Source: an uncultured Methanosarcinales archaeon (lineage in GTDB: Archaea; Nanobdellota; Nanobdellia; Woesearchaeales; ARS49). Taken from it: 64,000 nt of DNA. The stretch covers positions 9,879-73,878 of the forward strand of contig CAZWVL010000004.1 in the NCBI GenBank assembly GCA_964637115.1. Reading direction: 5' to 3'. A program made the position numbers and the translations under genes. The notes beneath the pieces were generated by a model. That model was not told the origin of the DNA and did no database searches. It saw only the letters and a program-made list of their open reading frames with translations. Positions 4,418 to 19,292 of this stretch are shown here, piece after piece; the stretch's first letter is position 1; each line of letters begins with the position of its first letter.

Positions 4418-5487
4418 ATGCCGTTCTCAAATTTCGTCAACATGATCTCGCGGTCTATAATCTGATCACCATTATAGCTCACCACACCACTTACTCCGTT
4501 CATGGTCAAGTTGCGCATGTTGTTGGCAACACACAGTGTTTCCGTGCACCCTTCGTATGCTTTTGCCATTGTCATTGCGTCATCATACAATACTGCGCTT
4601 CCTCGCAAGAAATAAGCCTGCTTCTTGTCTTCCAGTTTTTTCTTGAACGAAACAAAAATAGGGTCAGTGCTCGCTTCATCAACTGCAATATCCGCGCCCA
4701 GAGCATCTTTCAGCACTTCTGGATAATCACGGCTGTTCTCAGAGCTTCCGCACCCAAAACTCTGGAAAGGTATTAGGATTTGAGCGGTAATTCCAAGCTC
4801 TTTTATCTGCTTATACGCGTTCGGGCAATCAGGTGCATACATTGCCAAGATGATAGCAGTGCTCCCTGAATTTTTTATCTTTGTGAATTGTGTTCTGAAA
4901 TCAATGCTTCCCTGATCGTACATCTCAGCTGCGGCAAGTTCGCCAATCTGCTCAACACCCTGCTTGCACAGCAGCGTAAACTCGGCATTTGTGCCGAACA
5001 GCGCAATTCGCTTGTTCTTAGCTTGCGTATACAATTTCTTGCACGCTTCAAAGCCGTCAAGCTGGTCTTTGAACACATAAGTTTTATTCGCTGAAAACGA
5101 ATTGACAACATTTACATAAATGAACGGCACTTTTGCATCTTCAGCTAATGGCGCTATAATGCCAGTGGGCATAACTGTGATGGTAAAAAGTGCATCGACG
5201 TTATCCACGTTGATTAGCTTCGCAGTCGCCGGTGCTACTTGCTTTTTATCGCTTGCAAAATCCTCATACAGCACTTCAACAGGCTTTCCGTTTATTCCAC
5301 CCGCGGCATTAATGTCTTCCACTGCTAGGTCTATTCCATATTTTGAAAACTCGCCATAAAACGCATTCGAGCCCGTTAATGGCAAAACTGCGCCGAATTT
5401 GTATGGTTTTATTTCAGCTTTTTCTACTTTAGCGCATGCTGATAGGAACAATAATGCTACAATTGTAAAGACCAAGAATTGTTTCAT
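4399..5487 (-). CDS. ABC transporter substrate-binding lipoprotein, LivK family (paralog 3)
   Basis: MKQFLVFTIVALLFLSAC lipobox; GAVLPLTGSNAFYGE; DINAAGGINGKPVEV. Confidence 0.85.
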   Translation of the reverse strand: MKQFLVFTIVALLFLSACAKVEKAEIKPYKFGAVLPLTGSNAFYGEFSKYGIDLAVEDINAAGGINGKPVEVLYEDFASDKKQVAPATAKLINVDNVDALFTITVMPTGIIAPLAEDAKVPFIYVNVVNSFSANKTYVFKDQLDGFEACKKLYTQAKNKRIALFGTNAEFTLLCKQGVEQIGELAAAEMYDQGSIDFRTQFTKIKNSGSTAIILAMYAPDCPNAYKQIKELGITAQILIPFQSFGCGSSENSRDYPEVLKDALGADIAVDEASTDPIFVSFKKKLEDKKQAYFLRGSAVLYDDAMTMAKAYEGCTETLCVANNMRNLTMNGVSGVVSYNGDQIIDREIMLTKFENGMWRKTG

Positions 5488-5489
5488 CT

Positions 5490-6566
5490 TTACTCTCCAG
5501 CAAACAATGTCTTTTTGCCGTTCTCAATCTTGTAAATCGGCACTGGTCTTGATGCGTCTCCGTTCGTATTAAAGTAAGAAGAACCTTGCAGCCATTGTCT
5601 TACTGTTTCAGTATCTGTCGTTCTTGTTTCTCTATAAGCCTGTGCTAACACCTTGACAGCCATATGAGCAGCGTCAGATGAAATGCCTGGCTCCTTGCCG
5701 TACTTTTCTGTGTACTTCTTTACGAATTCTTCATCGTATGGAAGCATGTCTATATAGTATGAAATCGCAAAATCATCTGTAGTAATCGCATTTCTTGTTA
5801 ATGCTTCACCAAAGTTGCCTTCTGCGTTGAGCAATATGGCATCAAACTGTTGCTCTTTCATTTTTTTTACTATGTGTGCGGTGTCAATCGGGCCAACTGC
5901 GAGAAAAACAACGTCTGGCTTGAGTGATTTTGCTTTGGTTACTTGTGTTGCGAAGTCATTGCCGTCAAATGCTGTGCCGACAAAGTCTGCAGTCAATTCT
6001 CCGCCGTTTTCTTTCATTAATCGTTCAAAATTTTCTTTGTATGAATCTGACCAGGACCCAGGGGCTCTGAAAATTACAGCATGCTTAATTTTTTCCTGTT
6101 TAATCACCAGTCTATACGCTCTGACATGATTTGGAACTGGTGGCCAGGTTCTGAATAAATACTGGCTTAAGCGGGAATTGTCTTTTGTATTTCCGGTTGA
6201 CGGGTTTATTAGTATTAATTTGGCAGCGTCAGCAATCGGAGCCATTGGTTCAAGCGAGTAGTCCCACGTACCGCCTATAATCGCGTCAATTTTGTCAATT
6301 TCCATCAGTTTTGTAAGTGCAGTAACCGCTCTTTTTCCGTCCGTGCCGTCGTCTTCGTAAATAACAACAATTTTCTTGCCATTTATGCCTCCTGCAGCAT
6401 TTATTTCTTCTACGGCAAGGTCCATTCCGTTTCTCGAGCTTTCACCATAGAATGCTGCAACGCCTGTTAAGCTCAAAACTGCGCCTATCTTGATTTGTTC
6501 GCTTTGCTGAGGCGTGCAAGCTGCTAAAAGCAGCAAAGCTGCTAAAAGAACAAAAAATCCTTTCAT
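5490..6566 (-). CDS. ABC transporter substrate-binding lipoprotein, LivK family (paralog 4)
   Basis: MKGFFVLLAALLLLAAC lipobox; IGAVLSLTGVAAFYGE; EINAAGGINGKKIVV. Start trimmed to the internal ATG. Confidence 0.85.
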   Translation of the reverse strand: MKGFFVLLAALLLLAACTPQQSEQIKIGAVLSLTGVAAFYGESSRNGMDLAVEEINAAGGINGKKIVVIYEDDGTDGKRAVTALTKLMEIDKIDAIIGGTWDYSLEPMAPIADAAKLILINPSTGNTKDNSRLSQYLFRTWPPVPNHVRAYRLVIKQEKIKHAVIFRAPGSWSDSYKENFERLMKENGGELTADFVGTAFDGNDFATQVTKAKSLKPDVVFLAVGPIDTAHIVKKMKEQQFDAILLNAEGNFGEALTRNAITTDDFAISYYIDMLPYDEEFVKKYTEKYGKEPGISSDAAHMAVKVLAQAYRETRTTDTETVRQWLQGSSYFNTNGDASRPVPIYKIENGKKTLFAGE

Positions 6567-6567
6567 T

Positions 6568-7650
6568 TTAATCTTCCAGCGGAACAAATCCGCCATTCTT
6601 GACCTGCATCAGTATGAGCGGTCTGTCAACATCGCCTTTTGAATCAAAGCTGAACGTTCCGCTGACTCCATTGTAGTTCTGCGTTGCGTACAGCTGTTGT
6701 TTTATGCAGTCGGTATCATCGTTGCATTGCTCAACGATTTTTGATATCAATTTCAACGCATCATACGCATTGGCTACAAACCACGAGAAGTTCGGATCGT
6801 TGTACACGTTTGCATATTTCTGCTTGAATTCTTGTGCTTGCTGCGTGCCGGGATTAAATCCTGACGTGTAGACTATTCCTTCTCCTGCGCCTTGGGCAGC
6901 AGTTAAGAATGCTTTATCCTCCATTGCTGGTGTTGTCAAGAATGGTCCTGTATATCCCATTTCTCGGGCGATTTTCAGGTTAATCCCTATGTCTTTTGCA
7001 AATCCTGACGTATAGATGACTTCAGGTTTGGAATCGATTACTTTGCTAATCTGGGTGCGTGCATCGCCTGAGTCTTTGTCATATAGCTCTTGTGCGACAA
7101 GTGTTCCTCCTAATTCTTGGTAGCGTGTGGCAAATGGATTCGCATAAGCAAGCGGCCCTTCTGCATTTGCATTTAGCATTGCTGCTTTTTTCCAGCCTTT
7201 TGAAATGGCATATTCAGCCATTGTTTTGCCATGGCCAGTCGCTGTTTCACGGTTTCTGAATGTGTAATCGCCTGCATCGGTAATCTTTCCTGTAACTGCA
7301 GTTGAGCTCAAAATTATGACTTTCTTTTGTTCTGCAAGTGGCGCGACTGCAAGAACTGAGCCTGAAAGGACAGGGCCGATGATTATCTTCACTCCGTCAA
7401 CATCAGTGAGCTTGTTGAACGCAGTAACTGCTACTTTTGTGTCGCTCTGCTCATCTTCGAATATAACGTCGACGTTGCTGACTTCTTTGAGCGCGAGATT
7501 GATTCCTTTGGTAATTCCTTCTCCATAATTTCCTTGCGCGCCGGTTAACGTCAAAATAATGCCGACTTTGACTTTTTCTGTTGGTTGTTCAACTTGTACG
7601 CATGCGCCCAAAAGCAACAATGCTAATATGACAAAGATTATTTTTTTCAT
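6568..7650 (-). CDS. ABC transporter substrate-binding lipoprotein, LivK family (paralog 5, most diverged)
   Basis: MKKIIFVILALLLLGAC lipobox; VGIILTLTGAQGNYGE. Confidence 0.8.
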   Translation of the reverse strand: MKKIIFVILALLLLGACVQVEQPTEKVKVGIILTLTGAQGNYGEGITKGINLALKEVSNVDVIFEDEQSDTKVAVTAFNKLTDVDGVKIIIGPVLSGSVLAVAPLAEQKKVIILSSTAVTGKITDAGDYTFRNRETATGHGKTMAEYAISKGWKKAAMLNANAEGPLAYANPFATRYQELGGTLVAQELYDKDSGDARTQISKVIDSKPEVIYTSGFAKDIGINLKIAREMGYTGPFLTTPAMEDKAFLTAAQGAGEGIVYTSGFNPGTQQAQEFKQKYANVYNDPNFSWFVANAYDALKLISKIVEQCNDDTDCIKQQLYATQNYNGVSGTFSFDSKGDVDRPLILMQVKNGGFVPLED

Positions 7651-7651
7651 T

Positions 7652-8770
7652 TTATACCTCCACGTTTACCCATTTACCTTCGTTGTACTGAACAATACGA
7701 ATGGGACGAGTGGCATAATGATTACCGTCGAATGCCACGTGTCCTGCAACACCAGTGTAATCGGTTTCTGCGAGCTTGTCGCGTACGCATTCCTTGGTTA
7801 TTTCAGTGCACTTGCCTGCCGCAATAGAAATCTCGTGCATATTATCATAGGCGACTGCTGCGTCTACAGGACCGACAAGTTTTTTGCCAATGCGTGTTTC
7901 AATTTTCTGCATAAATTCAGCGAGTTTTGGTGTTGGCTGTGCTGGGTTGGCTGCTTGGTCTGCGGCATAAGCGTCTTTGAGAATGCGGTTTTTGTCCAGG
8001 TCCTTGACTGCCATTGGGTTTGCAGATAATGCAGTGCCGATGGGCAGGTATAATTGTGGAACAAAGTCCAGCTCAAGCATTTGTTTGTAAATCATGTTGC
8101 AGTCTGGGGGCCAGCAGACAAGAACAACAGCATCTGGTTGTATGCTCTTGAACTTGGTGACAGAAGTTCGCGCATCAGGGTCATTGCTGAGCTTCATTTC
8201 ATTTGCAACAATAGTACCGCCCTTTGTGACAAATTCTTTTTTGAGTGTTTCAAGACAGTCTGCGCTGAAGTCAGCGTCATTTCCGAGGAAGGCAAGGCGT
8301 TTGTGGCCGTTTTTCAGTGCCGTTTGTCCTAATTGTTTGCATTCATTTGCAGCATCACGCAAATCGCTAAATATCCAGGTGTTCTTTCTCGCATAGGTTG
8401 GGACACCAGTAAACCCGAACAATGGGACTGCATTTTGTTCCGCTACTGCGCTTGCGCCGCCTGTAACAGGCGTTGTTATCGAATAGATAAAGTCGACGCC
8501 ATCCTGCTGTATTAGTTTTGTAGTCGCAGTAGTGCCTTTTGCAGCATTATCTGCATCTTCTAGAATGGTTTGAATCTGCCTGCCGTTGATGCCGCCTGCT
8601 GCATTGATTTCTTCCTTTGCCATTTCAAGGGCTGAAACGACATATTCGCCAATCCAGGCATTTGGCCCGGTCATGGGCGCCACAATGCCGACTTTGTATG
8701 GCTGTGATTCTGTTTGTACGCACGCTGCCAAAAGCAGCAGCGTCAAAATTATCATTATTGTTTGTTTCAT
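7652..8770 (-). CDS. ABC transporter substrate-binding lipoprotein, LivK family (paralog 6)
   Basis: MKQTIMIILTLLLLAAC lipobox; VGIVAPMTGPNAWIGE; EINAAGGINGRQIQ. Confidence 0.85.
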   Translation of the reverse strand: MKQTIMIILTLLLLAACVQTESQPYKVGIVAPMTGPNAWIGEYVVSALEMAKEEINAAGGINGRQIQTILEDADNAAKGTTATTKLIQQDGVDFIYSITTPVTGGASAVAEQNAVPLFGFTGVPTYARKNTWIFSDLRDAANECKQLGQTALKNGHKRLAFLGNDADFSADCLETLKKEFVTKGGTIVANEMKLSNDPDARTSVTKFKSIQPDAVVLVCWPPDCNMIYKQMLELDFVPQLYLPIGTALSANPMAVKDLDKNRILKDAYAADQAANPAQPTPKLAEFMQKIETRIGKKLVGPVDAAVAYDNMHEISIAAGKCTEITKECVRDKLAETDYTGVAGHVAFDGNHYATRPIRIVQYNEGKWVNVEV

Positions 8771-8779
8771 TTTTCCACC

Positions 8780-9820
8780 TCAAAACTCCTTCTTCCACTC
8801 GAGCATGACAGCATGGCTGTCATCCCAGTGATTTGTAATTGGATTTTCGTTCAGATCTGCTTTGTACCAGATACGCAATCCGCTGTTGCCGAGCTCAAAT
8901 CGTAAACCGAGCATTGCACCATTGGTATCAGTTGCAAAGTTTCTTCGATATTCGATGCTCGGCGTAATGTCATTCAAGAATGCAAAGTCACCTATGTTGA
9001 GTGCGCCGCGGATTGATGCTTTTTTATCATGGGTGTAGGTTGCATCAATGCCGTAATCTCCTGTATCTTTGTCTACATAAATTTCGGCGTTGCCGAAGCT
9101 GAATGTTTTGAAGGATAATGGGAATGTTAAATCGCCCAAGACGCTAAGGGTGTTATGGTCCTCGTCATCAACGCCGAACACTTTTGCACGTTGTGCCCAC
9201 TGCTTTGAGCCGAGAGTAATACGGGCTTCTCTGAAATCGTTTTTACCGATTTTAATGTAGCTCCAGAGTGCTGCACCGTCTAATTTCAAGCTGTATGAAG
9301 CGTTTGCTTCCCAGTTGTTTCCGTTGTTAATATGTCCACCGGCGTATACTAAAGAGTCTCCAATTTCTGCTGTTAGCACACCGCTGGAATTGCCTTTGCT
9401 GTCAAATGCTGCTTCTAAGCCGAAATTGTCATCAAGTTTTAATCCGCCGAGCCAGATTACTTTGTGTTCATTGTTTTCTCTGTCTAACACATCAAATTCC
9501 AGTCCTGCAAATCCTTGTTTGGTATTGTATGAGAGGTATGCTTTGCCTTGGTCTAATGTTGCAGTATCGCGCCAGCCGAGATTAAGCCTGAAATTATCAT
9601 AGTAAAGGTCTGCACCTATTGCGGAATTGTCCTTGGAAGTTTCACCCATGACTTTGTTTCCTGCATACGAAACAATAGTCTGAGCTGCTTCATCGTGCCA
9701 TGTTTCTGCGTATACGCGTGTTTCCATTTTGACTGGTTTCACGTCCTGCGCAAACGCTCCAGTATAGAGCGCCAGCGCGGAGAGTGATGTCATCACTGCA
9801 TGTTTGAGTCTCTGTAACAT
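8780..9820 (-). CDS. secreted beta-rich protein with bacterial outer-membrane beta-barrel (porin-like) character
   Basis: Signal peptide MLQRLKHAVMTSLSALALYTGAFA|QD. About 320 aa of alternating-hydrophobic amphipathic strands with G, Y, N and D in the turns. The C-terminus is ...AVMLEWKKEF (terminal aromatic). It is the first gene of the minus-strand SBP operon. The tool ORF uses GTG at 9829. Confidence 0.5.
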   Translation of the reverse strand: MLQRLKHAVMTSLSALALYTGAFAQDVKPVKMETRVYAETWHDEAAQTIVSYAGNKVMGETSKDNSAIGADLYYDNFRLNLGWRDTATLDQGKAYLSYNTKQGFAGLEFDVLDRENNEHKVIWLGGLKLDDNFGLEAAFDSKGNSSGVLTAEIGDSLVYAGGHINNGNNWEANASYSLKLDGAALWSYIKIGKNDFREARITLGSKQWAQRAKVFGVDDEDHNTLSVLGDLTFPLSFKTFSFGNAEIYVDKDTGDYGIDATYTHDKKASIRGALNIGDFAFLNDITPSIEYRRNFATDTNGAMLGLRFELGNSGLRIWYKADLNENPITNHWDDSHAVMLEWKKEF

Positions 9821-9880
9821 TTCCACCACCTATGTTCAGTAGTGACATGAAACTAATTTATACTTTTTTATTAAACTATA

Positions 9881-9892
9881 TATACTAGTATA
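9881..9892. promoter_or_regulatory. 12-bp perfect palindrome TATACTAGTATA upstream of AbrB-PhoU paralog 1 and the porin-like gene
   Basis: AT-rich divergent intergenic region 9821..9948 with AGTATA repeats. Confidence 0.35.
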
Positions 9893-9948
9893 AAGTATAA
9901 GTATTAAAGAAAAGGTTTAAATATAAGCCATTGCATCGACGATGTAAT

Positions 9949-10860
9949 ATGAAAAGAAAAGTTGTCCGGCAGGGCGCGGCGACATTAATGGTCTCCCTGC
10001 CAAGCAAGTGGGCGCATAAAGTGCACCTGAAGAAAGGCGATGAGATTGACATAGAGGAATCCAACGGCAATCTAGTGATTTCCAAGGAAAAAGTTGAGAC
10101 CAAAAAGCAGACCACTATCAACATTTCCAGTTATTCAGAATCTTCTATCCGTGTGGCGCTGTGGAACACGTACCGCGCAGGTTACAGCCGCATTGTTGTT
10201 AATTTTTCTGATGAAAAACAGTACAAAATTGTGAAGGACGTAATTAAAAATTACGTCGTTGGCTTTGATGTTACTAAGAAAGAGAAGAATTCGTGCATTG
10301 TTGAAAATATCACAGAGCCCGCAGAAGAACAATTTGACGTTCTTTTCAGGAAAATCCTGTATAATATCTCTTTGTTAATCAACATTACTGAAGAACGGCT
10401 GAGAAATAAGCAAACGAGCGACAATTATAATGAAATTGTACTGAAAATCCACCAATATGACAACTTTTGTCGTCGGGTGATTGCGAAAAGGAATTTGTCC
10501 GGCAGTGAGGCATATTTGTTATGGTCATTCCTCACGTTGCTAATTCACGGACAGAGAGAACTGTACCATTTAAACAGGTACTTAGATAAGAACAAGGTAA
10601 AATTCACGAATTTTGAATTTTATGGCAAATTGAGAAAAATATTTGATTTATTGAACGAAGGATACGTCAAAAAAGACTTATCAAAATTTGAAAAGATTCA
10701 TGAATTGGAAAAAGATATCCTATATCAGGAATTTTATGGTTTGATTCAGAAAAATCAGAAAGAGAATATAGTGCTTTATCACATTGCTGCTGCAATAAGA
10801 CAGTTTTATTTGTCAGTAAGTCCTTTAGTGGGTCTATTATTGGAATCCAATAAGTCGTAG
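9949..10860 (+). CDS. AbrB/SpoVT-domain plus PhoU-like domain regulator (paralog 1 of 3)
   Basis: N-terminus MKRKVVRQGAATLMVSLPSKWAHKVHLKKGDEIDIEE (AbrB swapped-hairpin pattern) followed by a helical ~250-aa domain. Its 3' end overlaps the convergent kinase gene by 55 nt. The tool start at 9931 is TTG. Confidence 0.6.
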   Translation: MKRKVVRQGAATLMVSLPSKWAHKVHLKKGDEIDIEESNGNLVISKEKVETKKQTTINISSYSESSIRVALWNTYRAGYSRIVVNFSDEKQYKIVKDVIKNYVVGFDVTKKEKNSCIVENITEPAEEQFDVLFRKILYNISLLINITEERLRNKQTSDNYNEIVLKIHQYDNFCRRVIAKRNLSGSEAYLLWSFLTLLIHGQRELYHLNRYLDKNKVKFTNFEFYGKLRKIFDLLNEGYVKKDLSKFEKIHELEKDILYQEFYGLIQKNQKENIVLYHIAAAIRQFYLSVSPLVGLLLESNKS

Positions 10861-12566
10861 TGAATTCTTCCTTCATTGTCAGTTATGTGATACAATGCGA
10901 TTGCCCTGTTAATCAGGTTCCTTTTCGTTCCTGAAAGGAACTCTGAATAGCCTGATATTTCTTGGCCGTTTTTATTTGTTTTAGAATAATTCAGACTGTT
11001 TGCTTTTTTGCGTGCTTCAAATAATTCTTCTTTGTCACAGAAATATTCTGCACTGACATCAGCAAGTGTTTTATTGGTTCCAAGTTGATTTTTTAAATAC
11101 AATATTGCATAGAAACGGTATCTGAATTCATCAGGAGTGGTTTTATCATTAAATTTATTCACAAAATCATTCGGCACTAAAACTGAATTTGTGCGCATTT
11201 CTTTGTACTCATCTTGTTTTAATTTTTCGTCTTCCATGAGAGCGCTGCGCATTATTGAATAACATAAGCGCTTGCTCATTCTCCTCATATCCATTGTATT
11301 GTCAAGTGGGTCTGCAAATATTCCTTTTTTCGCCTCTTTTAACGGATTTTCTTGTTCCTTGATTTGCTTGAAATAGGGAATAAACTGTTCTGCAATGTCA
11401 GAATTTTGTAAAAGATAGTCTAATCCGCTGTCAGGATATATTCCTGTCCTTAAGGTTTCGTGTATTGCAGGTTCTTTGAATCGGTCTGCTTTTTCTTGAA
11501 TCTGCATTAATTTAAGGCCGCCAAAAATACCGGTTATAATACCAGCAATAGTTGTAAAACCTACTGCATATTTCCTGATTTTTTGCCACGGAACAATGCG
11601 CCTGTTGACAGCATCTTCAAAGTCTCCTTCGAAATTAAAATGTGCCATATTATCAATATACTTCGGATGTTGGACACTGAGGCAATTGCGGAGCATTTTT
11701 CTGTATTGTCGTGGAACAAGGGCGAGGCGTTTTTCCAGAGCAGCGTCGTGTTCATCAAGATTGACATTTGCTATTTGCTTGCCATCCTGTTTAAGTGTTG
11801 CTTTGAGTATCTTTCCATCGACGAAAATTGGTGTTCCATCTTCATCAGCTACCAATTCAATTTTAAATAGCGGTTCTCCGGTTAAAGCATAGAACATTGT
11901 TGCACCTAATGCATAAAACTCGCTTTGTATTGTTGCCTTGGCTTCTTTTTTGTCAAGGAGTGCATTGAGTATGTTTGGCGCAGTAAATTGTGTTCCACCT
12001 CTGGTCGGCAGGAATGATTCTGTAATGTCTCCGATTTTACCTGCTGTCTGCAGGTCTGAAAGCTTGGCGCTCTCATCACGTATTCCAATGAGTATATTTG
12101 ATGGCTTGATGTCTCTGTGCAAAAGGCCTTCGCGCCAGTGTAAATGTTTCAAGCCTGCTGCAACTTGAGAGAATATGTATTTGAACTTCTCTGGTTCGTT
12201 TATTTTACCAAATCGAACACGTTGCTCTAACGAAATGGCTTCATAATATTCTTCAACTGTGATTGTCTTGTCGCCCGTCTTGAACGCATCATTAATCTCT
12301 ACAATGTTCGGATGCTTGACTTTGTTCAGTGCTAGGACTTCGCGTTCATCCAGGTCACCTTTTGAGCGGTTAATGGCTGTCGTGATTGAATTCTCATCAA
12401 TGTGCTCTTTGGGAATCTTGACCACACGGACCTTTTCCACGCTGCCGTGCTTGTAAAGTGCTTCGTAAACGTCTCTGGTGTGGCCTTCTCCAAGTTTGCG
12501 AATTATCGTATACCCGTTTTCCTTGAGTAATTGCTCTACTTTAGAGTCGAGTTTAGTTGCTGCCAT
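10806..12566 (-). CDS. Hanks-type Ser/Thr protein kinase, single-pass membrane, with a ~230-aa C-terminal domain beyond the TM
   Basis: GEGHTRDVY...VVK (VAIK-like), catalytic loop HRDIKPSNILI, then one TM segment YAVGFTTIAGIITGIFGGLKL. Confidence 0.85.
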   Translation of the reverse strand: MAATKLDSKVEQLLKENGYTIIRKLGEGHTRDVYEALYKHGSVEKVRVVKIPKEHIDENSITTAINRSKGDLDEREVLALNKVKHPNIVEINDAFKTGDKTITVEEYYEAISLEQRVRFGKINEPEKFKYIFSQVAAGLKHLHWREGLLHRDIKPSNILIGIRDESAKLSDLQTAGKIGDITESFLPTRGGTQFTAPNILNALLDKKEAKATIQSEFYALGATMFYALTGEPLFKIELVADEDGTPIFVDGKILKATLKQDGKQIANVNLDEHDAALEKRLALVPRQYRKMLRNCLSVQHPKYIDNMAHFNFEGDFEDAVNRRIVPWQKIRKYAVGFTTIAGIITGIFGGLKLMQIQEKADRFKEPAIHETLRTGIYPDSGLDYLLQNSDIAEQFIPYFKQIKEQENPLKEAKKGIFADPLDNTMDMRRMSKRLCYSIMRSALMEDEKLKQDEYKEMRTNSVLVPNDFVNKFNDKTTPDEFRYRFYAILYLKNQLGTNKTLADVSAEYFCDKEELFEARKKANSLNYSKTNKNGQEISGYSEFLSGTKRNLINRAIALYHITDNEGRIHYDLLDSNNRPTKGLTDK

Positions 12567-12699
12567 CGTTCTCCTTCAGAAGCTTGTTTACGGCAAATTC
12601 TACAAAATGAGACTTGTTGCGAAAAGCCCCGTTTTGTAGTTTTTCCTCTACCTGCTTGATGGTATTCTCGTCTATGGATATGCTGACTTTGACCTTCAT
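12553..12699 (-). CDS. small ribbon-helix-helix (CopG/Arc-like) DNA-binding protein, 48 aa, overlapping the kinase start
   Basis: Hand-translated: MKVKVSISIDENTIKQVEEKLQNGAFRNKSHFVEFAVNKLLKENDGSN, a strand-helix-helix pattern. Its stop lies 11 nt inside the kinase ORF (ATGGCAGCAACTAA). It is below the 60-aa cutoff of the ORF track. Confidence 0.45.
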   Translation of the reverse strand: MKVKVSISIDENTIKQVEEKLQNGAFRNKSHFVEFAVNKLLKENDGSN

Positions 12700-12795
12700 A
12701 CGGGGTAGTAAGAATTGCCACCTTTATAAACCTTTCTCTTTTTAGCCACTATCAAGTGGTAACATTTATATACAGGTTATACATAACCTATCCAT
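12700..12795. promoter_or_regulatory. divergent promoter/operator region between the RHH-kinase and AbrB-like-kinase operons
   Basis: TATA-like TTTATAAA (~12723) and TTTATATA (~12766). Perfect palindromes CCACT-atca-AGTGG (~12744) and AGGTTAT-ac-ATAACCT (~12774). Confidence 0.45.
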
Positions 12796-12939
12796 ATGAA
12801 ACAGTTCATAATCACCAAGAAGATTGCCAAGCACGGCTCTCAGGCTATTATTGTAGTTCCGAGAGTTCTTGAATCTTATCTAAAGCCAAAGACGTTGGTA
12901 AAATTGACGATTGACGTGTTGGAGGAGCCAGATGAATAA
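12796..12939 (+). CDS. small AbrB/MazE-like protein, 47 aa
   Basis: Hand-translated: MKQFIITKKIAKHGSQAIIVVPRVLESYLKPKTLVKLTIDVLEEPDE. HGSQAIIVVPRVL fits the AbrB/MazE looped-hinge hairpin. Its stop overlaps the ATG of the next ORF (ATGAATAA). Confidence 0.4.
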   Translation: MKQFIITKKIAKHGSQAIIVVPRVLESYLKPKTLVKLTIDVLEEPDE

Positions 12940-13456
12940 TCCTCTAACTATTGACTTCAAACTGCAAAGAGAACATTTTGGTCAACTAATTGATATTGAC
13001 AGAATTGTTTTCCGGCAAGAACCTCATCCTAATCAGGTTGCAATAGCAGAGAGGCGACCTGAATTGTACACGGTTATCAGACGCGGAGACCATGTTGTTG
13101 GCTATGGTTTAGTTTTGCCATTGCGAAAAGCTGCGTTAACGGCTTTGAAAGAAGGAAAAATATGGGAAGATGAACTAAACATCGGCTGTCTAACCGACCG
13201 GTTGCCAGCTGGCTTTTACATTTCTTCAATTGCTGCAATACAAGATGCTTCTGAACGAGAGCGCGCAATGATTGTTGGAAGCACAGTCAGCCCTCCATTC
13301 CGCACACCTTTTGAAACAATTGCAATTCCTATTTCAGAAGCTGGTAACAGAATTTGTAGAAATCTGCTTCGTATGATTCCTGTACGAGCACGCACCGAAG
13401 TGAAAGGAATCGATGGCTATACGCCGACAACATACCAGCGTGGAGGAGCCAAATGA
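12932..13456 (+). CDS. hypothetical protein (174 aa), possibly an acyl-CoA N-acyltransferase-like fold
   Basis: ORF in an operon between the AbrB-like ORF and the APH-like kinase; its stop overlaps the kinase ATG (ATGA). The tool start at 12911 is TTG. The fold call is weak. Confidence 0.4.
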   Translation: MNNPLTIDFKLQREHFGQLIDIDRIVFRQEPHPNQVAIAERRPELYTVIRRGDHVVGYGLVLPLRKAALTALKEGKIWEDELNIGCLTDRLPAGFYISSIAAIQDASERERAMIVGSTVSPPFRTPFETIAIPISEAGNRICRNLLRMIPVRARTEVKGIDGYTPTTYQRGGAK

Positions 13457-15648
13457 AACCGCTTGAACTCCAGCTGAAAGAAATTCTTGGTGTTAAGGAA
13501 TACAACCGTTTTGCAGATACTGTGCTTTTCCCTGCTATCGAGCAGCTTGCTGAGAGCGGAAAGCTGAGCAATTCTGATCTTGCCAAATTGGCTAAATTGA
13601 CAAAGACCTATGGAGCAGGAATTTTTGACGTTGCCGCTTCAGACGTGGGAGAGGCAACCAAGCATAATCTGTCAGACGGCTTCTCAATTATTGCAAAATA
13701 CAAGTTGAATGAGGATTTGGAATTCAATCTGTTCGTGAAGAAATTCAGCGACAAAAAAAGCTTTGACCGGGGTGTTCTCATACAGGAAGAAATTGCGCAG
13801 CATTTGAGAAACACTGATTTGGCAGGCGTCGTTCCAGAACAGCTATATAAAAACCGGGGCAAGCGCATTGTTGTTATGCCGCTGGTCGAGGCAAAATCAC
13901 TCAATGCCGTCTTGCCTGAATCGAAAGACAAGGAAGAATTGCTTAGAAAAACAATAACAGAATATTTGAAAATAACTGATCATATTGGAGCTAAAAAAGT
14001 CTTTGTGCCTCCAAAAAGAAACGCCCTCGGAAAACTCTGGTATGATGATTTCAAACTGCCTTCATTGCAGAATTTCGACAGATTTTTTGCAAAGGGCTTT
14101 GGTGCTGATGAAAAAATTACAGAAAGCTACAAGCAGCACATAGGCAGCCGTTTGAACGGAAATACAGGCGATTTCATCCACGGTGATTTGCACCCAGGCA
14201 ACATTCTGATTAATGACAAGACCCATTTCATAGACTGGGAGCTGGCCGCAAATGGTTTTACTGAATTTGACCTTTACAAATTGTTCACAAAATCCAATGT
14301 GTCTGATGACCTCGAAGACCGTTTGCTTGCATATACTGTTATGACTAAGGAAAAACTGCGTGCAAAGCGCGAAAACAGGCAGCCAGCCAGCGCTGACACG
14401 CACAGATTGCTATTTGAAGCATCTAAGACACGATACAGGTTAAATCAGATTACTCAGGACTTGTTGACTGCTGAACGCTACAACAAGAATGCGCAAAAAG
14501 ATGTAAAACGCCACGACAAACTTGAAAAAATGGCATTAACTGCCTATAATATTGCCCTGCGCCATATAGAAAAAGCTGAAAGTGAGGGAATTCTCAGTGC
14601 TGATTTCAGGCTGACAATTGAAGATTTTGTACAAAAGAACAAGCCATATAACCGTATTAATAATGTTGAATTCGCTCAATTATTGAGCGTATATAATCCT
14701 CACACAACTCTTTCACAGGATAATCTTGTTTCGCACGGCACTGAAATAGGAGCGCCCGTTGACAAAGAATCCAAGCAAAAGAATTTAGAAATTATAAGGA
14801 AGAGTTTGCACAAGAAGGATTGGGGCAAGATTGCAAAACTTGGAATAGCTGCAGCAGTGTTGCTCTGTAGTGCAAGTTATGGTGGACGGAAGTATTTGGA
14901 GAGTGAACTTGCAAGAATAAAACTCGAGGAAAAGGCTAAACAGGAAGACGCCGATAGTTGGTTTAGAAATGATTTCTGCAAAATTTACGAGACGCGTATT
15001 GAGGCTGAGCTGCATGGTGGAAAGATTCGATGGGCTTATACAGAAGCTGACAAGAGACCGTTGGGAAAAGTGCGGTTAATCGAAGATCGTGAGTTGATCA
15101 AAAATACCTGTGACAAGTATAATCTTGACTTACAATTTACCAGGAGAATGTATAAGATAAATGCTGCTTTTGCTAACGTTGAAAATAATAAAATGAGTGA
15201 TAGAGGCATAAATTTCCTTGATCCATATAGATTCGTATATACCAAAGGTTCTGAGGCTGATCATTATGATCCAGTAATCAATCTTGAATTTGGTGCAAAA
15301 AGATTATCGCGATTGTTTGATAAGTATAAAGTGGATAGAAATATGATTAAAAATGGGCATCATGTCAATAATGGCAACGATGCAATAAAGAATAATGATT
15401 CTTCTTTACAACCATTGATTCGGGCATTAAAACAGTTTTATACCTTTCAAAAGAATTATACCGAAGATGAGGAAGATAAAAGATATGAAGAGCAGCTAAG
15501 CGATGATAAAAAATATAATAAAAAGCTTGCACGTGGCGTACGTGAAATCATATACGCCTTGTTGACAAATGGTCCCCAATCTGATTTTAATGGTGATATT
15601 GTATACTTGGAACAATCAGGAATTCCTGACAATTTCATGCGAGAGTAA
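13453..15648 (+). CDS. membrane-anchored APH/choline-kinase-like protein kinase-fold protein (731 aa)
   Basis: Catalytic motif HGDLHPGNILI and IDWE (APH/CAK family), one TM segment (IAKLGIAAAVLLCSASYGG), and a ~250-aa C-terminal domain. Confidence 0.7.
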   Translation: MKPLELQLKEILGVKEYNRFADTVLFPAIEQLAESGKLSNSDLAKLAKLTKTYGAGIFDVAASDVGEATKHNLSDGFSIIAKYKLNEDLEFNLFVKKFSDKKSFDRGVLIQEEIAQHLRNTDLAGVVPEQLYKNRGKRIVVMPLVEAKSLNAVLPESKDKEELLRKTITEYLKITDHIGAKKVFVPPKRNALGKLWYDDFKLPSLQNFDRFFAKGFGADEKITESYKQHIGSRLNGNTGDFIHGDLHPGNILINDKTHFIDWELAANGFTEFDLYKLFTKSNVSDDLEDRLLAYTVMTKEKLRAKRENRQPASADTHRLLFEASKTRYRLNQITQDLLTAERYNKNAQKDVKRHDKLEKMALTAYNIALRHIEKAESEGILSADFRLTIEDFVQKNKPYNRINNVEFAQLLSVYNPHTTLSQDNLVSHGTEIGAPVDKESKQKNLEIIRKSLHKKDWGKIAKLGIAAAVLLCSASYGGRKYLESELARIKLEEKAKQEDADSWFRNDFCKIYETRIEAELHGGKIRWAYTEADKRPLGKVRLIEDRELIKNTCDKYNLDLQFTRRMYKINAAFANVENNKMSDRGINFLDPYRFVYTKGSEADHYDPVINLEFGAKRLSRLFDKYKVDRNMIKNGHHVNNGNDAIKNNDSSLQPLIRALKQFYTFQKNYTEDEEDKRYEEQLSDDKKYNKKLARGVREIIYALLTNGPQSDFNGDIVYLEQSGIPDNFMRE

Positions 15649-16537
15649 GCGTTTGCCCCATCATTCTTACTATTAATTCTGTCATCTCCCGCAAAAAGCG
15701 CAGGACATATGTCTCCTTTGCCGATTTAGTGCTGTTTAGTTTTCTATCGATTTCAAAAGCAATGCTGTCACGCTCTTTTGCGAGTGCAGCTGCTGCTTCA
15801 TACGAGAATTCATAGAATAATCCTTCAAATTTCTTGAAAAGGCGCTGTATTCGGTCATAGAGGGCAATTACCGATGATTCTAATACAACCTTGTTTTTGG
15901 TGATATAGCCGGTCAGCAGCTTGTATTCGTCGCCAAGCTGCTCAAGAAGCATAACAACAGCATACATGACTGGAGTCTTCGAATATTCCGGATACCCATA
16001 TTTGTTTAGAATACGAAAACAATGGTCCGTTACCCTGTTTATGTTGGCTTCCATATCCTCAAGATAGGCGAGGTCTGTTTCTTTTCGTTTTAAGGTTTGA
16101 AGGCTTTCGTCAGCTACGGCGCTTATCATGAAAAATACCCGCCGAAGTATTGGGTCGAATGCGTTTTCAGACACACCCGAAATATCTTTGATGATAAGAT
16201 AATTTTTGCCTTGCTGGATTACTTCCATTCCTATCATTTCCCTGACGCGCTGCTGAATGAGTCTTGCCTTGTTTAACGAGTCAAACTTCACTTCCAGTTC
16301 ATCAACGCCTTCCAAGTATTTTGCAGCAACAATTCTTTTGAGCAAATTGTCAAGCTTGCTTAGATCAATGGTCTCCCGCATATGCTTGGGAACGGTTGGC
16401 GGGGTCATTACAAGCGTCGTATCTTTCTCTTCCAGTTCTATTTCATCACCCGCTTTCAGATTAAGCTTCTTTGTCCACTTGGCAGGCAGTGAAATAGTCA
16501 GTGTTGCCGCTCCCTGCTTGATTATCTTGCGTCGCAT
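15635..16537 (-). CDS. AbrB/SpoVT-domain plus PhoU-like domain regulator (paralog 2 of 3)
   Basis: MRRKIIKQGAATLTISLPAKWTKKLNLKAGDEIELEE. Its 3' end overlaps the convergent APH-like kinase by 14 nt. The tool start at 16558 is TTG. Confidence 0.6.
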   Translation of the reverse strand: MRRKIIKQGAATLTISLPAKWTKKLNLKAGDEIELEEKDTTLVMTPPTVPKHMRETIDLSKLDNLLKRIVAAKYLEGVDELEVKFDSLNKARLIQQRVREMIGMEVIQQGKNYLIIKDISGVSENAFDPILRRVFFMISAVADESLQTLKRKETDLAYLEDMEANINRVTDHCFRILNKYGYPEYSKTPVMYAVVMLLEQLGDEYKLLTGYITKNKVVLESSVIALYDRIQRLFKKFEGLFYEFSYEAAAALAKERDSIAFEIDRKLNSTKSAKETYVLRFLREMTELIVRMMGQTLTLA

Positions 16538-16594
16538 ATCGTCGATAGTCGCTTTCAAGTATATAAATTTTGCCTTTAGAATATAAGAATATGC

Positions 16595-16608
16595 TAGAAT
16601 ATATTCTA
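16595..16608. promoter_or_regulatory. 14-bp perfect palindrome TAGAATATATTCTA in the divergent promoter region of AbrB-PhoU paralog 2
   Basis: It is flanked by three direct AGAATAT repeats (16577-16602) and lies ~60 nt upstream of the 16675 ORF and ~40 nt upstream of the 16537 ORF. Confidence 0.4.
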
Positions 16609-16674
16609 TATGAAAAAAGAATATATTTCCGATAAGTTGTCACTTGTAGAGTAAGACAAGATTTGGGTGGTAAA

Positions 16675-17094
16675 ATGAACAAAAGAAACGATAACGGTCA
16701 TGTCAAATATTCACCGGATGCTTCATTAGTTAACAAGCTCAAGGTTGGAGATCATTATACTGAGATTTGGCAAGGTTTGCCCGATCACCCATTCGAGCCT
16801 TCTGCAACAACAGGTGGCAAGTCAGGCTTAAAGTATGAAACAAATGATAAATACGTCTGGGTTACGCCAAATACTGCTCGTGCACTGGAACAAAATCCGG
16901 ATGAAATTCTGTATGCCAGTATTAAGAAATCTAAAGACAAAGAGTATTGCGCCAGATGGGTAGAATCCATCAGCGGAACTTCCTTTGGAAATACTCTTGA
17001 AAGTGCTATTTCTCGAGCTCAAGAACTGAATATCGAAGAGTTACATAACAGAATCGAGAAGGATCGAAGAAAGAAATTGGAGGCCAAAAAATGA
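16675..17094 (+). CDS. hypothetical protein (~139 aa) leading the plus-strand SBP operon
   Basis: ORF whose stop overlaps the ATG of the following SBP gene (ATGA). The tool start is TTG at 16663. Confidence 0.4.
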   Translation: MNKRNDNGHVKYSPDASLVNKLKVGDHYTEIWQGLPDHPFEPSATTGGKSGLKYETNDKYVWVTPNTARALEQNPDEILYASIKKSKDKEYCARWVESISGTSFGNTLESAISRAQELNIEELHNRIEKDRRKKLEAKK

Positions 17095-18176
17095 AAACAG
17101 CAATAATTGCAATTCTAGTGCTGTTTCTAGCAGCATGCGTGCAAATAGAAGAAACAAAGCCATTCAAATTAGGTGCACCACTGCCTTTGACTGGCTCAAA
17201 TGCGTTCTATGGCGACTTTACAAAGTATGGTATAGAGCTTGCTGTTGAAGACATTAACAAAGCAGGCGGAATCAATGGTAGAACAGTCCAGGTTATCTAT
17301 GAAGATACTGCTGGAGATAAGACAAAAGCCACAACCGCGGCACAGAAGCTGATTCACATCGATGGTGTGGACGCTCTTATTACCTCCACGACTCCGATGA
17401 GCGGTGCGATTTCTCCGGTTGCTGAAGAGAACCGCATTCCGTTAATTTATGCTTCTGCAACAAATTCATTCACTATAAACAAAACGTATGTTTTCAAAGA
17501 TTATACAGATGCAGCCGGCATCTGTGAGCTTCTGATGAAACAGGTGAAAAAGGATGGGCATGAAAAAGTGGCCGTCTTTGGTACTGATGCTGAATTTACT
17601 CAGCTTTGTAAGAAAGGAGCAGAAAAAGTTGGAAAACTCAACTCATTTGAGGTTTATCCTGGCGGCGAAACTGATTTCAAAACACAGTTTGCCAAGATTA
17701 AGAATGCTGAAAACACTGCTTTGATTCTTTCGGTGTTCGCTGGAGATTGCCCGCATGCGTACAAGCAGATTCGCGAACTTGGGTTGAAGGCAAAATTGTA
17801 CACAGCTTTCCAGAGTTTTGCGTGCGGCAGTGCCGACAACACAAAAGCAAATGCCGACTTGCTTGAGGGCGCATATGGTGCTGATGTTGCTTTAGATGAA
17901 GAAAGCGATGATCCTGATTTTCTCGCTTTTAAGAAGCGCCTTGATGAAAGAGGCTGGACTACGCAAATTCGCGGAAGCGCCATTATGTACGATAGCACAA
18001 TGGAATTCGCAAAAGCCTTCCAGGATTGCCAAGATGCTCTTTGTGTAGCCAATAATCTCAGAGCTCTGCAGATGAATGGAATTTCTGGACACATCAGTTA
18101 TGGTGGAGACCAGATTGTTGAGCGCGAAATAATGTTGGTGAAATACGAAAACGGCAAATGGAGGAAAGTACAATGA
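17091..18176 (+). CDS. ABC transporter substrate-binding lipoprotein, LivK family (paralog 7)
   Basis: MKTAIIAILVLFLAAC lipobox; LGAPLPLTGSNAFYGD; DINKAGGINGRTVQV. It is the closest paralog to 4399..5487. Confidence 0.85.
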   Translation: MKTAIIAILVLFLAACVQIEETKPFKLGAPLPLTGSNAFYGDFTKYGIELAVEDINKAGGINGRTVQVIYEDTAGDKTKATTAAQKLIHIDGVDALITSTTPMSGAISPVAEENRIPLIYASATNSFTINKTYVFKDYTDAAGICELLMKQVKKDGHEKVAVFGTDAEFTQLCKKGAEKVGKLNSFEVYPGGETDFKTQFAKIKNAENTALILSVFAGDCPHAYKQIRELGLKAKLYTAFQSFACGSADNTKANADLLEGAYGADVALDEESDDPDFLAFKKRLDERGWTTQIRGSAIMYDSTMEFAKAFQDCQDALCVANNLRALQMNGISGHISYGGDQIVEREIMLVKYENGKWRKVQ

Positions 18177-19267: not shown

Positions 19268-19292
19268 TTTTTTCTTTTTATGAGGAAGCAAA

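What the first reader, a model, noticed from the sequence alone, without database searches (positions are those of the whole stretch)
12553..12699. Unannotated 48-aa ribbon-helix-helix ORF translationally overlapping the Hanks kinase start
The minus-strand ORF MKVKVSISIDENTIKQVEEKLQNGAFRNKSHFVEFAVNKLLKENDGSN has the beta-strand, helix, helix pattern of CopG/Arc/MetJ RHH repressors. It ends 11 nt inside the kinase ORF in the +1 frame (ATGGCAGCAACTAA). This tight coupling of a small DNA-binding protein to a kinase is reminiscent of antitoxin-toxin or HipB-HipA logic, but here the partner is a eukaryotic-type Ser/Thr kinase. It falls below the ORF-track length cutoff.
Basis: seen in the sequence. 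Interest (0 to 1): 0.75.

Follow-up and report, generated by a model that had tools for sequence, protein, structure and literature searches.

The report
Small RHH regulator heading kinase operon
The 48-codon ORF is a real, conserved gene for a tiny ribbon-helix-helix DNA-binding protein that sits first in an operon with a membrane Ser/Thr kinase in an archaeon. It most likely represses its own promoter and is not an antitoxin, so it is a fairly ordinary regulator belonging to a large family that no curated model yet describes.

Summary
The ORF at 12553-12699 (-) exists exactly as described. Its last 14 nt (ATGGCAGCAACTAA) overlap the start of a Hanks-type kinase gene at 10806-12566 (-).

The RHH call and the tight coupling are supported. 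The toxin-antitoxin / HipBA reading is not:
- The protein is a bare RHH domain; helix 2 ends at residue 44 of 48.
- Across 91 family members, mostly labelled Woesearchaeota or Nanoarchaeota, 80 overlap a downstream gene.
- That downstream gene varies: MoxR-like ATPases, Mpv17-like membrane proteins, Hanks kinases, APH-like kinases and assorted enzymes.

RHH-headed promoters share a fixed layout: a TACTA..TAGTA inverted repeat upstream of the TATA box and a second one between TATA and the ATG. This motif occurs in 33/45 of them against 11/120 other promoters (p = 1e-15). The window has both repeats, at 12746-12759 and 12705-12721.

Best reading: a CopG-like autorepressor translated as the first cistron of a near-leaderless operon. 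DNA binding was not tested. Known kind, new member.

The parts
12553..12699 (-). 48-aa ribbon-helix-helix (RHH) gene, first cistron of the operon
12553..12566 (-). 14-nt overlap between the RHH stop (TAA 12553-12555) and the kinase start (ATG 12564-12566)
   Evidence: Sequence. The identical 14-nt ATG..TAA geometry is found in L006, L014 and L010.
12571..12574 (-). Shine-Dalgarno-like GGAG, 4 nt before the kinase ATG, inside the RHH coding sequence
   Evidence: Sequence. An SD-like purine motif lies at -16..-4 of the partner start in 62/90 family junctions; no background rate was computed for comparison. Function is inferred.
10806..12566 (-). 586-aa Hanks-type Ser/Thr kinase with one hydrophobic segment (about aa 332-352) and an uncharacterised C-terminal domain
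   Evidence: Pfam Pkinase E = 3.3e-32. Catalytic residues are invariant in A4. The hydrophobic segment passes my crude Kyte-Doolittle threshold only in the L006 orthologue.
12705..12721 (.). O2: inverted repeat GTGGCAATTCTTACTAC (minus-strand reading) between the TATA box and the RHH ATG; putative operator
   Evidence: The only match to this pattern in 64 kb. The family-wide equivalent is TAGTA at +6..+9 and TACTA at +19..+22 from the TATA start. Conserved in orthologous promoters.
12723..12730 (-). TATA box TTTATAAA of the RHH-kinase operon, starting 31 nt before the ATG, which implies a leaderless or near-leaderless mRNA
   Evidence: The family mode for TATA start to ATG is 31-33 nt. The transcription start is inferred from standard archaeal promoter geometry.
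12746..12759 (.). O1: palindrome CCACTATCAAGTGG between the two divergent TATA boxes; putative operator
   Evidence: The family equivalent is TACTA at -31..-27 and TAGTA at -22..-17 from the TATA start. Conserved in L006, L010 and L014.
12765..12772 (+). TATA box TTTATATA of the divergent operon, starting 31 nt before the ATG at 12796
   Evidence: Conserved in A5.
12774..12789 (.). O3: palindrome AGGTTATACATAACCT between the divergent TATA box and the ATG at 12796; a different sequence from O1 and O2
   Evidence: The arm read ATAACC on the minus strand (GGTTAT on the plus strand) is conserved and the other arm varies among orthologues. Binder unknown.
12796..12939 (+). Divergent 47-aa ORF heading the second kinase operon; beta-rich and possibly AbrB-like
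   Evidence: 85-89% identical in L006 and L010. No Pfam or PDB sequence match. Single-sequence AlphaFold pLDDT is only 65.
12932..13456 (+). 174-aa ORF of unknown function, overlapping the 47-aa ORF by 8 nt
   Evidence: Gene calls on the same DNA. No family match.
13453..15648 (+). 731-aa APH-like kinase-fold protein with a hydrophobic segment and a C-terminal domain
   Evidence: Pfam APH E = 7.6e-11. A homologue (24% identity, E = 4e-16) is headed directly by an RHH-family gene in L008.
9931..10860 (+). AbrB/MazE-domain regulator of about 300 aa (PhoU-like by my reading, no PhoU model matched), convergent with the kinase and overlapping its 3' end by 55 nt; probable true start is the ATG at 9950
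   Evidence: Pfam MazE_antitoxin E = 6.2e-7. The same neighbour is present in L006, L008 and L010. Promoter sequence.
15635..16558 (-). Paralogous AbrB/MazE-domain regulator convergent with the APH-like gene (14-nt overlap)
   Evidence: Pfam E = 6.1e-9. 28% identical to the 9931-10860 protein.

Best explanation
The ORF encodes a minimal, DNA-binding-only ribbon-helix-helix (RHH) transcription factor of the CopG/Arc type. It is the first cistron of a leaderless or near-leaderless bicistronic mRNA whose second cistron is a membrane-anchored Hanks-type Ser/Thr kinase. Ribosomes finishing the RHH ORF are positioned on the kinase start through the 14-nt overlap and an internal GGAG, so both proteins are made from one transcript. 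RHH dimers then bind two inverted repeats that bracket the operon's TATA box: O1 upstream and O2 between TATA and the transcription start. This blocks TBP/TFB/RNA polymerase access, giving negative autoregulation that caps kinase levels. Because O1 abuts the TATA/BRE of the divergent promoter, the same protein may also damp the neighbouring APH-like kinase operon. Shown: gene reality, fold, overlap, promoter geometry, and motif enrichment and conservation. Inferred: DNA binding, repression rather than activation, and translational coupling.
For: Gene reality:
- The identical protein is already called in public gene sets.
- 164 word-index homologues, 1008 50%-identity cluster representatives and 334 confirmed loci among the 185,579 species representatives searched.
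- dN/dS is 0.02-0.19 while synonymous sites are saturated.

Fold:
- AlphaFold pLDDT 86.3, with residues 1-10 extended and helices at 11-22 and 29-44.
- Foldseek TM-scores 0.73-0.83 to ParD, NikR and SvtR.
- Pfam RHH_1 matches 50/108 family members. hhalign against CopG gives E = 7e-5.
- In the alignment, K2, S6, N28 and S30 are invariant and K4 nearly so. My reading is that K2, K4, S6 and S/T8 are the DNA-facing strand positions and that R-N-K-S forms the cap of helix 2.

Promoter and operators:
- TACTAC/GTAGTA occurs in 33/45 RHH promoters against 11/120 other TATA-bearing promoters in the same loci (Fisher p = 1.4e-15), at fixed positions on both sides of the TATA box.
- The window carries both repeats, and the O2-type pattern is unique in the 64 kb.
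- In L010 and L014 a PALP gene has been inserted ahead of the RHH gene, and the O1-TATA-O2 block sits at the operon's true promoter upstream of PALP.
- This control region shows 82% column identity across loci whose synonymous sites are saturated.

Coupling: 80 of 91 family genes overlap the downstream gene and 7 more lie within 15 nt.
Against: No binding or expression data exist; the operators are inferred from enrichment and position only. The window protein itself scores below Pfam's RHH_1 gathering threshold (15.8 against 20.5 bits), and a family-profile search of PDB sequences gave nothing below E = 0.05. The model is a monomer, so the dimeric beta-ribbon is not modelled. 24 of 91 family genes are internal cistrons, including repeated RHH copies within one operon, which simple autoregulation does not require. 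The window's O1 and O2 half-sites (CCACT, GTGGCA) deviate from the family consensus TACTA/TAGTA. Some of the motif conservation could reflect common descent of the loci.
Confidence: 0.68

Rival explanations
1. The pair is a type II toxin-antitoxin or HipB-HipA-like module. The ribbon-helix-helix (RHH) protein neutralises a growth-arresting kinase by direct binding and represses the operon as a complex with it.
For: The layout resembles a TA operon: a small DNA-binding gene comes first and overlaps a larger enzyme gene. Many of the best structural neighbours are RHH antitoxins such as ParD, Rv0298, MazE4 and TacA. Weak ParD and VapB Pfam matches occur in 14 and 11 of 108 family members. PIN/MazE pairs lie near some family loci.
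Against: The protein ends 4 residues after helix 2, so it has no toxin-binding extension. Partners of the same RHH family include MoxR-like ATPases, Mpv17-like membrane proteins, a proteasome subunit, a transketolase and a nucleoside hydrolase, which are not toxins. The kinase looks like a membrane receptor kinase with an extra C-terminal domain. RHH and kinase identities are discordant (71/86% against 90/55%). PADLOC matches cover the generic kinase domain only, and the RHH protein has none. HipA- and HipB-type families are absent from the matches.
Confidence: 0.05
2. The pair is a phospho-switch. The co-translated kinase phosphorylates the RHH protein on a conserved Ser or Thr (S6, S8, T13 or S30) and so changes its DNA binding. 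An extracellular signal sensed by the kinase's C-terminal domain would then feed back on this operon and possibly the divergent one. This adds to autoregulation rather than replacing it.
For: The kinase keeps all catalytic residues. Both kinase-type genes at this locus are headed by small putative DNA-binding proteins, and in L008 the APH-like kinase is headed by an RHH-family gene. 11 of 83 partners are kinase-fold proteins from at least three unrelated clusters. Ser/Thr residues sit on the DNA-facing strand.
Against: The same Ser/Thr residues are invariant in family members paired with non-kinase partners, so their conservation is explained by structure or DNA contact. RHH and kinase do not co-vary. 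There is no direct evidence of phosphorylation.
Confidence: 0.15
3. The protein is a trans-acting regulator of a wider regulon, in the manner of CdrS, and possibly an activator. Because the DNA-reading residues and operator half-sites are shared across paralogues, the RHH proteins of one genome would cross-regulate all RHH-headed operons and other promoters. Local autoregulation would be secondary.
For: The DNA-facing residues and the TACTA/TAGTA half-site are conserved family-wide. 11/120 promoters without an RHH gene also carry the hexamer. The promoter of the adjacent AbrB/MazE-domain gene has a conserved TACTAGTA about 30 nt upstream of its TATA box. The best NCBIfam match is CdrS (E = 3.4e-4).
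Against: The O2-type repeat is unique in the 64-kb window, and only one family member is encoded there. O2 lies between the TATA box and the start, which is a repressor position rather than an activator position (archaeal promoter knowledge). The CdrS score is far below its cutoff and no FtsZ partner was found.
Confidence: 0.12

Closest known systems
CopG (RepA) of plasmid pMV158, and the analogous ORF56 of Sulfolobus plasmid pRN1 (both recalled from my own knowledge)
   Different: This gene is chromosomal, in an archaeon. The cargo is a membrane Ser/Thr kinase rather than a replication protein. There are two operators bracketing an archaeal TATA box, and the mRNA is probably leaderless. The family heads many unrelated cargo genes, and no viral relatives were found.
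CdrS, the haloarchaeal RHH cell-division regulator co-transcribed with ftsZ2 (PMC7439475, PMC8406309)
   Same: It is a small archaeal RHH protein encoded immediately upstream of, and co-transcribed with, a functionally important downstream gene. It is the best NCBIfam match for this ORF (NF058555, E = 3.4e-4).
   Different: The score is 20.5 bits against a cutoff of 100. No FtsZ/tubulin partner was found among 83 partners. The CdrS paper reports CdrS in all major archaeal groups except DPANN, whereas most related loci here are labelled Woesearchaeota, Nanoarchaeota or Pacearchaeota.
RHH antitoxins of type II toxin-antitoxin systems (ParD, Rv0298, MazE4, TacA)
   Different: Antitoxins carry a C-terminal toxin-binding region, and this protein ends at the RHH domain. 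Partners here are diverse and mostly not toxin-like.
HipB-HipA
   Same: A small DNA-binding protein is encoded ahead of a protein kinase.
   Different: HipB is an Xre-type HTH protein and HipA belongs to a separate kinase family (my knowledge). Here the small protein is an RHH and the kinase matches the Hanks-type Pkinase model; no HipA-family model was among the matches.
Omega repressor of plasmid pSM19035
   Different: Omega has an unstructured N-terminal tail, a bacterial plasmid context and a different heptad sequence. The resemblance of the site grammar is an analogy only.

Membership tests
Ribbon-helix-helix superfamily (Pfam PF01402 RHH_1 and relatives) | Beta-strand, helix, helix topology in about 45 residues | tested here: met
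Ribbon-helix-helix superfamily (Pfam PF01402 RHH_1 and relatives) | Sequence match to the curated model above its gathering score | tested here: inconclusive
   The window protein scores 15.8 bits against a cutoff of 20.5, E = 0.014. 50/108 family members match RHH_1 at E <= 0.05, best 2.5e-5. Other RHH families also match (ParD, VapB, RHH_3, RHH_8).
Ribbon-helix-helix superfamily (Pfam PF01402 RHH_1 and relatives) | Homodimer forming a two-stranded antiparallel beta-ribbon that inserts into the major groove | not testable with these tools
   Only a monomer could be modelled. The alternating pattern K2/K4/S6/S8 (polar) against V5/I7/I9 (hydrophobic) fits a ribbon.
Ribbon-helix-helix superfamily (Pfam PF01402 RHH_1 and relatives) | Binds repeated or symmetric DNA subsites | not testable with these tools
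   Indirect only: the TACTA/TAGTA inverted repeats are enriched in RHH promoters (33/45 against 11/120) and sit at fixed positions.
CopG / pRN1-ORF56-type first-cistron autorepressor | RHH-only protein encoded as the first gene and co-transcribed with the regulated downstream gene | tested here: met
   48 aa with a 14-nt overlap with the kinase. 67/91 family genes are first cistrons and 80/91 overlap the next gene. Co-transcription is inferred from the overlap.
CopG / pRN1-ORF56-type first-cistron autorepressor | Operator overlapping its own promoter | tested here: inconclusive
   Inverted repeats flank the TATA box in the window and family-wide. Binding was not tested.
CopG / pRN1-ORF56-type first-cistron autorepressor | Plasmid replication-control context | tested here: not met
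   The window carries the RFC large subunit, ValRS and CysRS. The partner is a kinase. No relatives were found in viral contigs.
Type II toxin-antitoxin RHH antitoxin | C-terminal toxin-neutralising extension beyond the RHH domain | tested here: not met
   Helix 2 ends at residue 44 of 48. Most family members are 43-52 aa.
Type II toxin-antitoxin RHH antitoxin | Constant pairing with a toxin family | tested here: not met
   83 partners fall into more than 30 BLAST clusters. These include AAA_5 ATPases (13), Mpv17-like proteins (18), Pkinase (7), APH (4) and housekeeping-type enzymes.
Type II toxin-antitoxin RHH antitoxin | Partner is toxic when expressed alone | not testable with these tools
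   Needs an experiment.
HipB-HipA | Xre-type HTH antitoxin plus a HipA-family kinase | tested here: not met
   The small protein is an RHH. The kinase matches Pkinase, and no HipA-family model is among its Pfam or NCBIfam matches.
CdrS (NCBIfam NF058555) | Score above the curated cutoff | tested here: not met
   20.5 bits against a cutoff of 100.
CdrS (NCBIfam NF058555) | Synteny with ftsZ2 | tested here: not met
   No tubulin/FtsZ domain among 83 downstream partners.
Hanks-type Ser/Thr kinase (the partner gene) | Pkinase domain above threshold with intact catalytic Lys, Glu, HRD Asp, Asn and DFG-position Asp | tested here: met
   112.4 bits against a cutoff of 31.7. K50, E76, D152, N157 and D171 are invariant in A4. 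The DFG motif reads DLQ.

The most novel reading that the evidence does not exclude
The ORF may belong to a widespread archaeal family, most of whose loci are labelled Woesearchaeota, Nanoarchaeota or Pacearchaeota, that acts as a portable regulatory cassette. The cassette would comprise a promoter, two conserved operators, a leaderless mRNA and a 46-aa ribbon-helix-helix (RHH) gene whose 3' end contains the start codon of whatever cargo follows. It would have been placed in front of kinases, MoxR ATPases, membrane proteins and enzymes, and duplicated together with its cargo inside operons. Because all copies keep the same DNA-reading residues and half-site, they would form one cross-talking network that controls the variable membrane and signalling gene set of these reduced-genome archaea.
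Probability: 0.35. Interest if true: 0.55.

Novelty: new member of a known kind. Interest (0 to 1): 0.35.

Why it matters
Small genes like this one are often dropped by length cutoffs, yet here the 48-aa protein is probably what sets the expression of a receptor-type Ser/Thr kinase. The family has at least 1008 sequence clusters and most members carry no functional name. It has a recognisable operator, and it could be a convenient entry point into transcription control in Woesearchaeota and Nanoarchaeota, which are uncultured and have almost no characterised regulators. The predicted operator and promoter fit within about 100 bp, so the hypothesis can be tested directly in vitro. For toxin-antitoxin and defence surveys the lesson is cautionary: a small ribbon-helix-helix gene overlapping a kinase is not sufficient evidence of a toxin-antitoxin pair.

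Tried and rejected
1. A family-profile search of PDB sequences gave only marginal hits (antitoxin Rv0298 E = 0.048, CopG E = 0.39). The fold had to be shown by structure comparison instead.
2. I tried an unbiased test of whether orthologous kinases always carry the mini-ORF, and it failed twice. The metagenome scan with the kinase alignment was swamped by generic Hanks kinases of about 30% identity. None of those 80 loci has a family member upstream, which serves only as a negative control. The word-index search with the kinase's C-terminal 287 aa returned nothing. Conservation of the pair therefore rests on loci found through the RHH gene.
4. Rfam found no RNA family in the window, so a riboswitch or leader-RNA reading was dropped.
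5. PADLOC gave only generic kinase-domain matches (mad6, PD-T4-6) and none for the RHH protein. I rejected a defence-system reading for lack of any specific component.
6. No relatives were found in viral contigs.
7. The divergent 47-aa ORF could not be classified: there was no Pfam or PDB sequence match, and the AlphaFold model had low confidence.
8. A first pattern with the wrong spacer (YACT N5 AGTR) missed O1. Corrected patterns were used.
9. I considered testing whether operator sequence co-varies with the DNA-reading residues. This is impossible because those residues are invariant.
Full report
**Observation**

It shares 14 nt with the next ORF on the same strand, 10806-12566. That sequence is ATGGCAGCAACTAA, with the kinase ATG at 12564-12566 and the ribbon-helix-helix (RHH) stop TAA at 12553-12555. 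The kinase reads in the +1 frame relative to the RHH ORF. A GGAG lies 4 nt before the kinase ATG (12571-12574).

The partner is a Hanks-type kinase: Pfam Pkinase E = 3.3e-32. Its catalytic residues K50, E76, D152, N157 and D171 are invariant among orthologues, and the N-terminus is conserved from residue 1, which supports the overlapping ATG as the true start.

A 48-codon ORF is not remarkable in itself, because 10 kb here holds 113 ORFs of at least 30 aa. The case for a gene rests on homology.

**Is it a gene?**

Yes.
- The identical 48-aa protein is already a called gene in NCBI, JGI and Logan gene sets, on contigs up to 142 kb.
- A profile of close homologues found 164 proteins by word index.
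- An exhaustive HMM search found 1008 cluster representatives at E <= 1e-3 and 231 at E <= 1e-10. Nearly all of those listed are stand-alone proteins of 43-60 aa.
- 334 loci were confirmed among the 185,579 species-representative genomes searched. Most of the 79 listed are labelled Woesearchaeota, Nanoarchaeota or Pacearchaeota, and many others 'uncultured Methanosarcinales'.
- Some sources already name homologues 'Arc/MetJ-type ribbon-helix-helix transcriptional regulator'.
- Over codons 1-41, outside the overlap, dN/dS between loci is 0.02-0.19 with synonymous sites saturated.
- The window is archaeal chromosomal DNA, carrying the RFC large subunit, ValRS and CysRS. No viral relatives were found.

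**Fold**

Sequence models are marginal for this protein alone. Pfam RHH_1 scores 15.8 bits against a cutoff of 20.5, and NCBIfam CdrS gives E = 3.4e-4. Across the family they are consistent: RHH_1 matches 50 of 108 members, and other RHH families also match. hhalign against CopG gives E = 7e-5.

In the family alignment, M1, K2, S6, N28, S30 and E34 are invariant, and K4, D10, R27, K29, H31 and A36 are nearly so. My reading is that these correspond to the polar face of the strand (K2, K4, S6) and the N-cap of helix 2 (R-N-K-S). The protein ends 4 residues after helix 2.

**Control region**

The 96-nt intergenic region holds two divergent TATA boxes: TTTATAAA at 12723-12730 for the RHH operon and TTTATATA at 12765-12772 for the opposite operon. 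Each starts 31 nt before its ATG. By standard archaeal promoter geometry this predicts leaderless or near-leaderless mRNAs, which is an inference.

Three inverted repeats are present:
- O2, GTGGCAATTCTTACTAC at 12705-12721, between the TATA box and the RHH ATG.
- O1, CCACTATCAAGTGG at 12746-12759, between the two TATA boxes.
- O3, AGGTTATACATAACCT at 12774-12789, between the other TATA box and its ATG.

I listed the upstream regions of all family genes. Those that head an operon share one layout: TACTA..TAGTA about 20-30 nt upstream of the TATA box, then TAGTA..TACTA between the TATA box and the ATG.
- The hexamer TACTAC/GTAGTA is present in 33/45 such promoters against 11/120 other TATA-bearing promoters in the same loci (Fisher p = 1.4e-15).
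- The pentamers sit at fixed offsets from the TATA start: -31..-27 and -22..-17, then +6..+9 and +19..+22.
- In L010 and L014 a PALP gene lies between the promoter and the RHH gene. There the O1-TATA-O2 block is found upstream of PALP, at the operon's real promoter.
- The four orthologous control regions show 82% column identity even though synonymous sites are saturated.
- The O2-type pattern is unique in the 64-kb window, and no second family member is encoded there.

**What follows the mini-ORF elsewhere?**

In 91 unique family genes from 79 genome loci plus the contigs found through the first homologues:
- 80 overlap a downstream same-strand gene, 72 of them by 4, 8, 11, 14, 17 or 20 nt.
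- 7 more lie within 15 nt of the downstream gene.
- 67 are first cistrons and 24 are internal.

The 83 partners fall into many unrelated groups:
- An 18-member cluster of Mpv17/PMP22-like membrane proteins, often in tandem [RHH + cargo] arrays of two or three units.
- MoxR-like AAA_5 ATPases (13).
- Hanks kinases (7, in at least two unrelated clusters).
- APH-like kinases (4).
- Single cases: an ADP-ribosylglycohydrolase, a proteasome subunit, a nucleoside hydrolase, a transketolase, an SNF2 helicase and a methyltransferase.

The kinase pairing itself is conserved. L006, L010 and L014 carry kinases 54-86% identical to the window's, each with the same 14-nt junction. RHH and kinase similarities are discordant, however. 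Window against L014 is 71% for the RHH and 86% for the kinase, while L006 against L014 is 90% and 55%.

In L008 a family member (71% identical) heads an APH-like kinase. That kinase is related to the one in the window's divergent operon, which is headed by a different 47-aa protein.

**Mechanism**

The best-supported reading is a CopG-like autorepressor. It is translated first from a leaderless bicistronic mRNA, with the kinase translated by coupling. Binding of RHH dimers at O1 and O2 would occlude the TATA, BRE and start region. Binding at O1 may also affect the divergent promoter.

The gene, fold, junction, promoter layout and motif statistics are shown. DNA binding, the direction of regulation and translational coupling are inferred.

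The toxin-antitoxin / HipBA reading is disfavoured for four reasons: there is no toxin-binding tail, the partners are diverse and mostly not toxin-like, RHH and kinase do not co-vary, and no HipA- or HipB-type families match. PADLOC matches only the generic kinase domain.

A phospho-switch, in which the kinase modifies the RHH protein, and a wider regulon remain possible additions.

One observation is unexplained: internal RHH copies are kept in front of each cargo paralogue in the tandem arrays.

**Comparison and novelty**

The closest functional analogues are CopG of pMV158 and ORF56 of pRN1 (my knowledge), and CdrS for the archaeal 'small RHH upstream of its cargo' layout. CdrS membership fails: the score is 20.5 bits against a cutoff of 100, and there is no ftsZ2 synteny. 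The CdrS paper reports CdrS as absent from DPANN archaea (PMC7439475).

This is a new member of a known kind. The family-level pattern, a conserved operator plus an obligatory overlap with varied cargo, is the part worth recording. My two literature searches turned up no description of it.

**Limits**

An unbiased, kinase-first survey of orthologues could not be completed. All synteny evidence therefore comes from loci found through the RHH gene.

Noticed in passing
window 12796-12939 (+), with 12932-13456 and 13453-15648: The divergent operon mirrors the ribbon-helix-helix (RHH)-kinase operon. A conserved 47-aa beta-rich ORF (85-89% identical in L006 and L010) heads it, followed by overlaps of 8 nt and 4 nt into a 174-aa ORF and a 731-aa APH-like kinase-fold protein. 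The small ORF may be AbrB-like, but no model matched and the AlphaFold pLDDT was 65. A distinct palindrome, AGGTTATACATAACCT at 12774-12789, occupies the position that O2 holds in the RHH promoter.
   Followed up: partly
window about 1400-19300: The locus is nearly mirror-symmetric. On each side the order outward is: small DNA-binding gene, membrane kinase, a convergent AbrB/MazE-domain regulator (the two are 28% identical), then runs of Peripla_BP_6 solute-binding protein genes. It looks like an ancient inverted duplication in which the kinase type (Hanks or APH-like) and the small regulator type (RHH or beta-rich) were swapped.
   Followed up: partly
window 10806-10860 and 15635-15648: The 3' ends of both kinase genes overlap the 3' ends of the convergent AbrB/MazE-domain regulator genes, by 55 nt and 14 nt. 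The same convergent neighbour is kept in L006, L008 and L010. That regulator may be part of the same signalling module, for example as a kinase substrate.
   Followed up: no
window 9880-9950; L006, L010, L014 equivalents: The promoter of the AbrB/MazE-domain gene is highly conserved between loci. It carries a TACTAGTA palindrome (9883-9890) about 30 nt upstream of its TATA box (TTTAAATA, 9916-9923), followed by AAGTAT direct repeats. The palindrome resembles fused RHH half-sites and might be an additional RHH target.
   Followed up: partly
L012 2997-5018; L034 1387-4360; also L074, L078, L086, L065: Loci in Woesearchaeota and related archaea carry tandem arrays of two or three [46-aa RHH + 240-315-aa Mpv17/PMP22-like membrane protein] units in one operon. 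Only the first RHH gene has a promoter and operator. Why each cargo paralogue keeps its own RHH copy is unexplained.
   Followed up: partly
window 13453-15648 (aa 599-630) and one of the 83 RHH partners: The C-terminal part of the APH-like protein has a weak match to the SLT lytic transglycosylase domain (E = 0.029). One RHH-coupled partner elsewhere matches SLT at E = 4.5e-15. A kinase-fold protein with an extracytoplasmic lysozyme-like domain would be unusual in an archaeon.
   Followed up: no
L014, L015, L025 and about 15 other loci: Many related loci carry the record title 'uncultured Methanosarcinales archaeon', and one carries 'Aminicenantes bacterium'. Their closest relatives are labelled Woesearchaeota, Nanoarchaeota or Pacearchaeota. 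The labels may be placeholder or binning artefacts. The window's own taxon was not established beyond 'archaeon'.
   Followed up: no
window 16537-16568 and 9916-9950: Other promoters in the window also place a TATA box 31-34 nt before the probable ATG. Examples are the AbrB/MazE-domain genes, whose true starts are probably the internal ATGs at 16537 and 9950 rather than the upstream TTGs. Leaderless transcripts may be the rule in this organism.
   Followed up: partly
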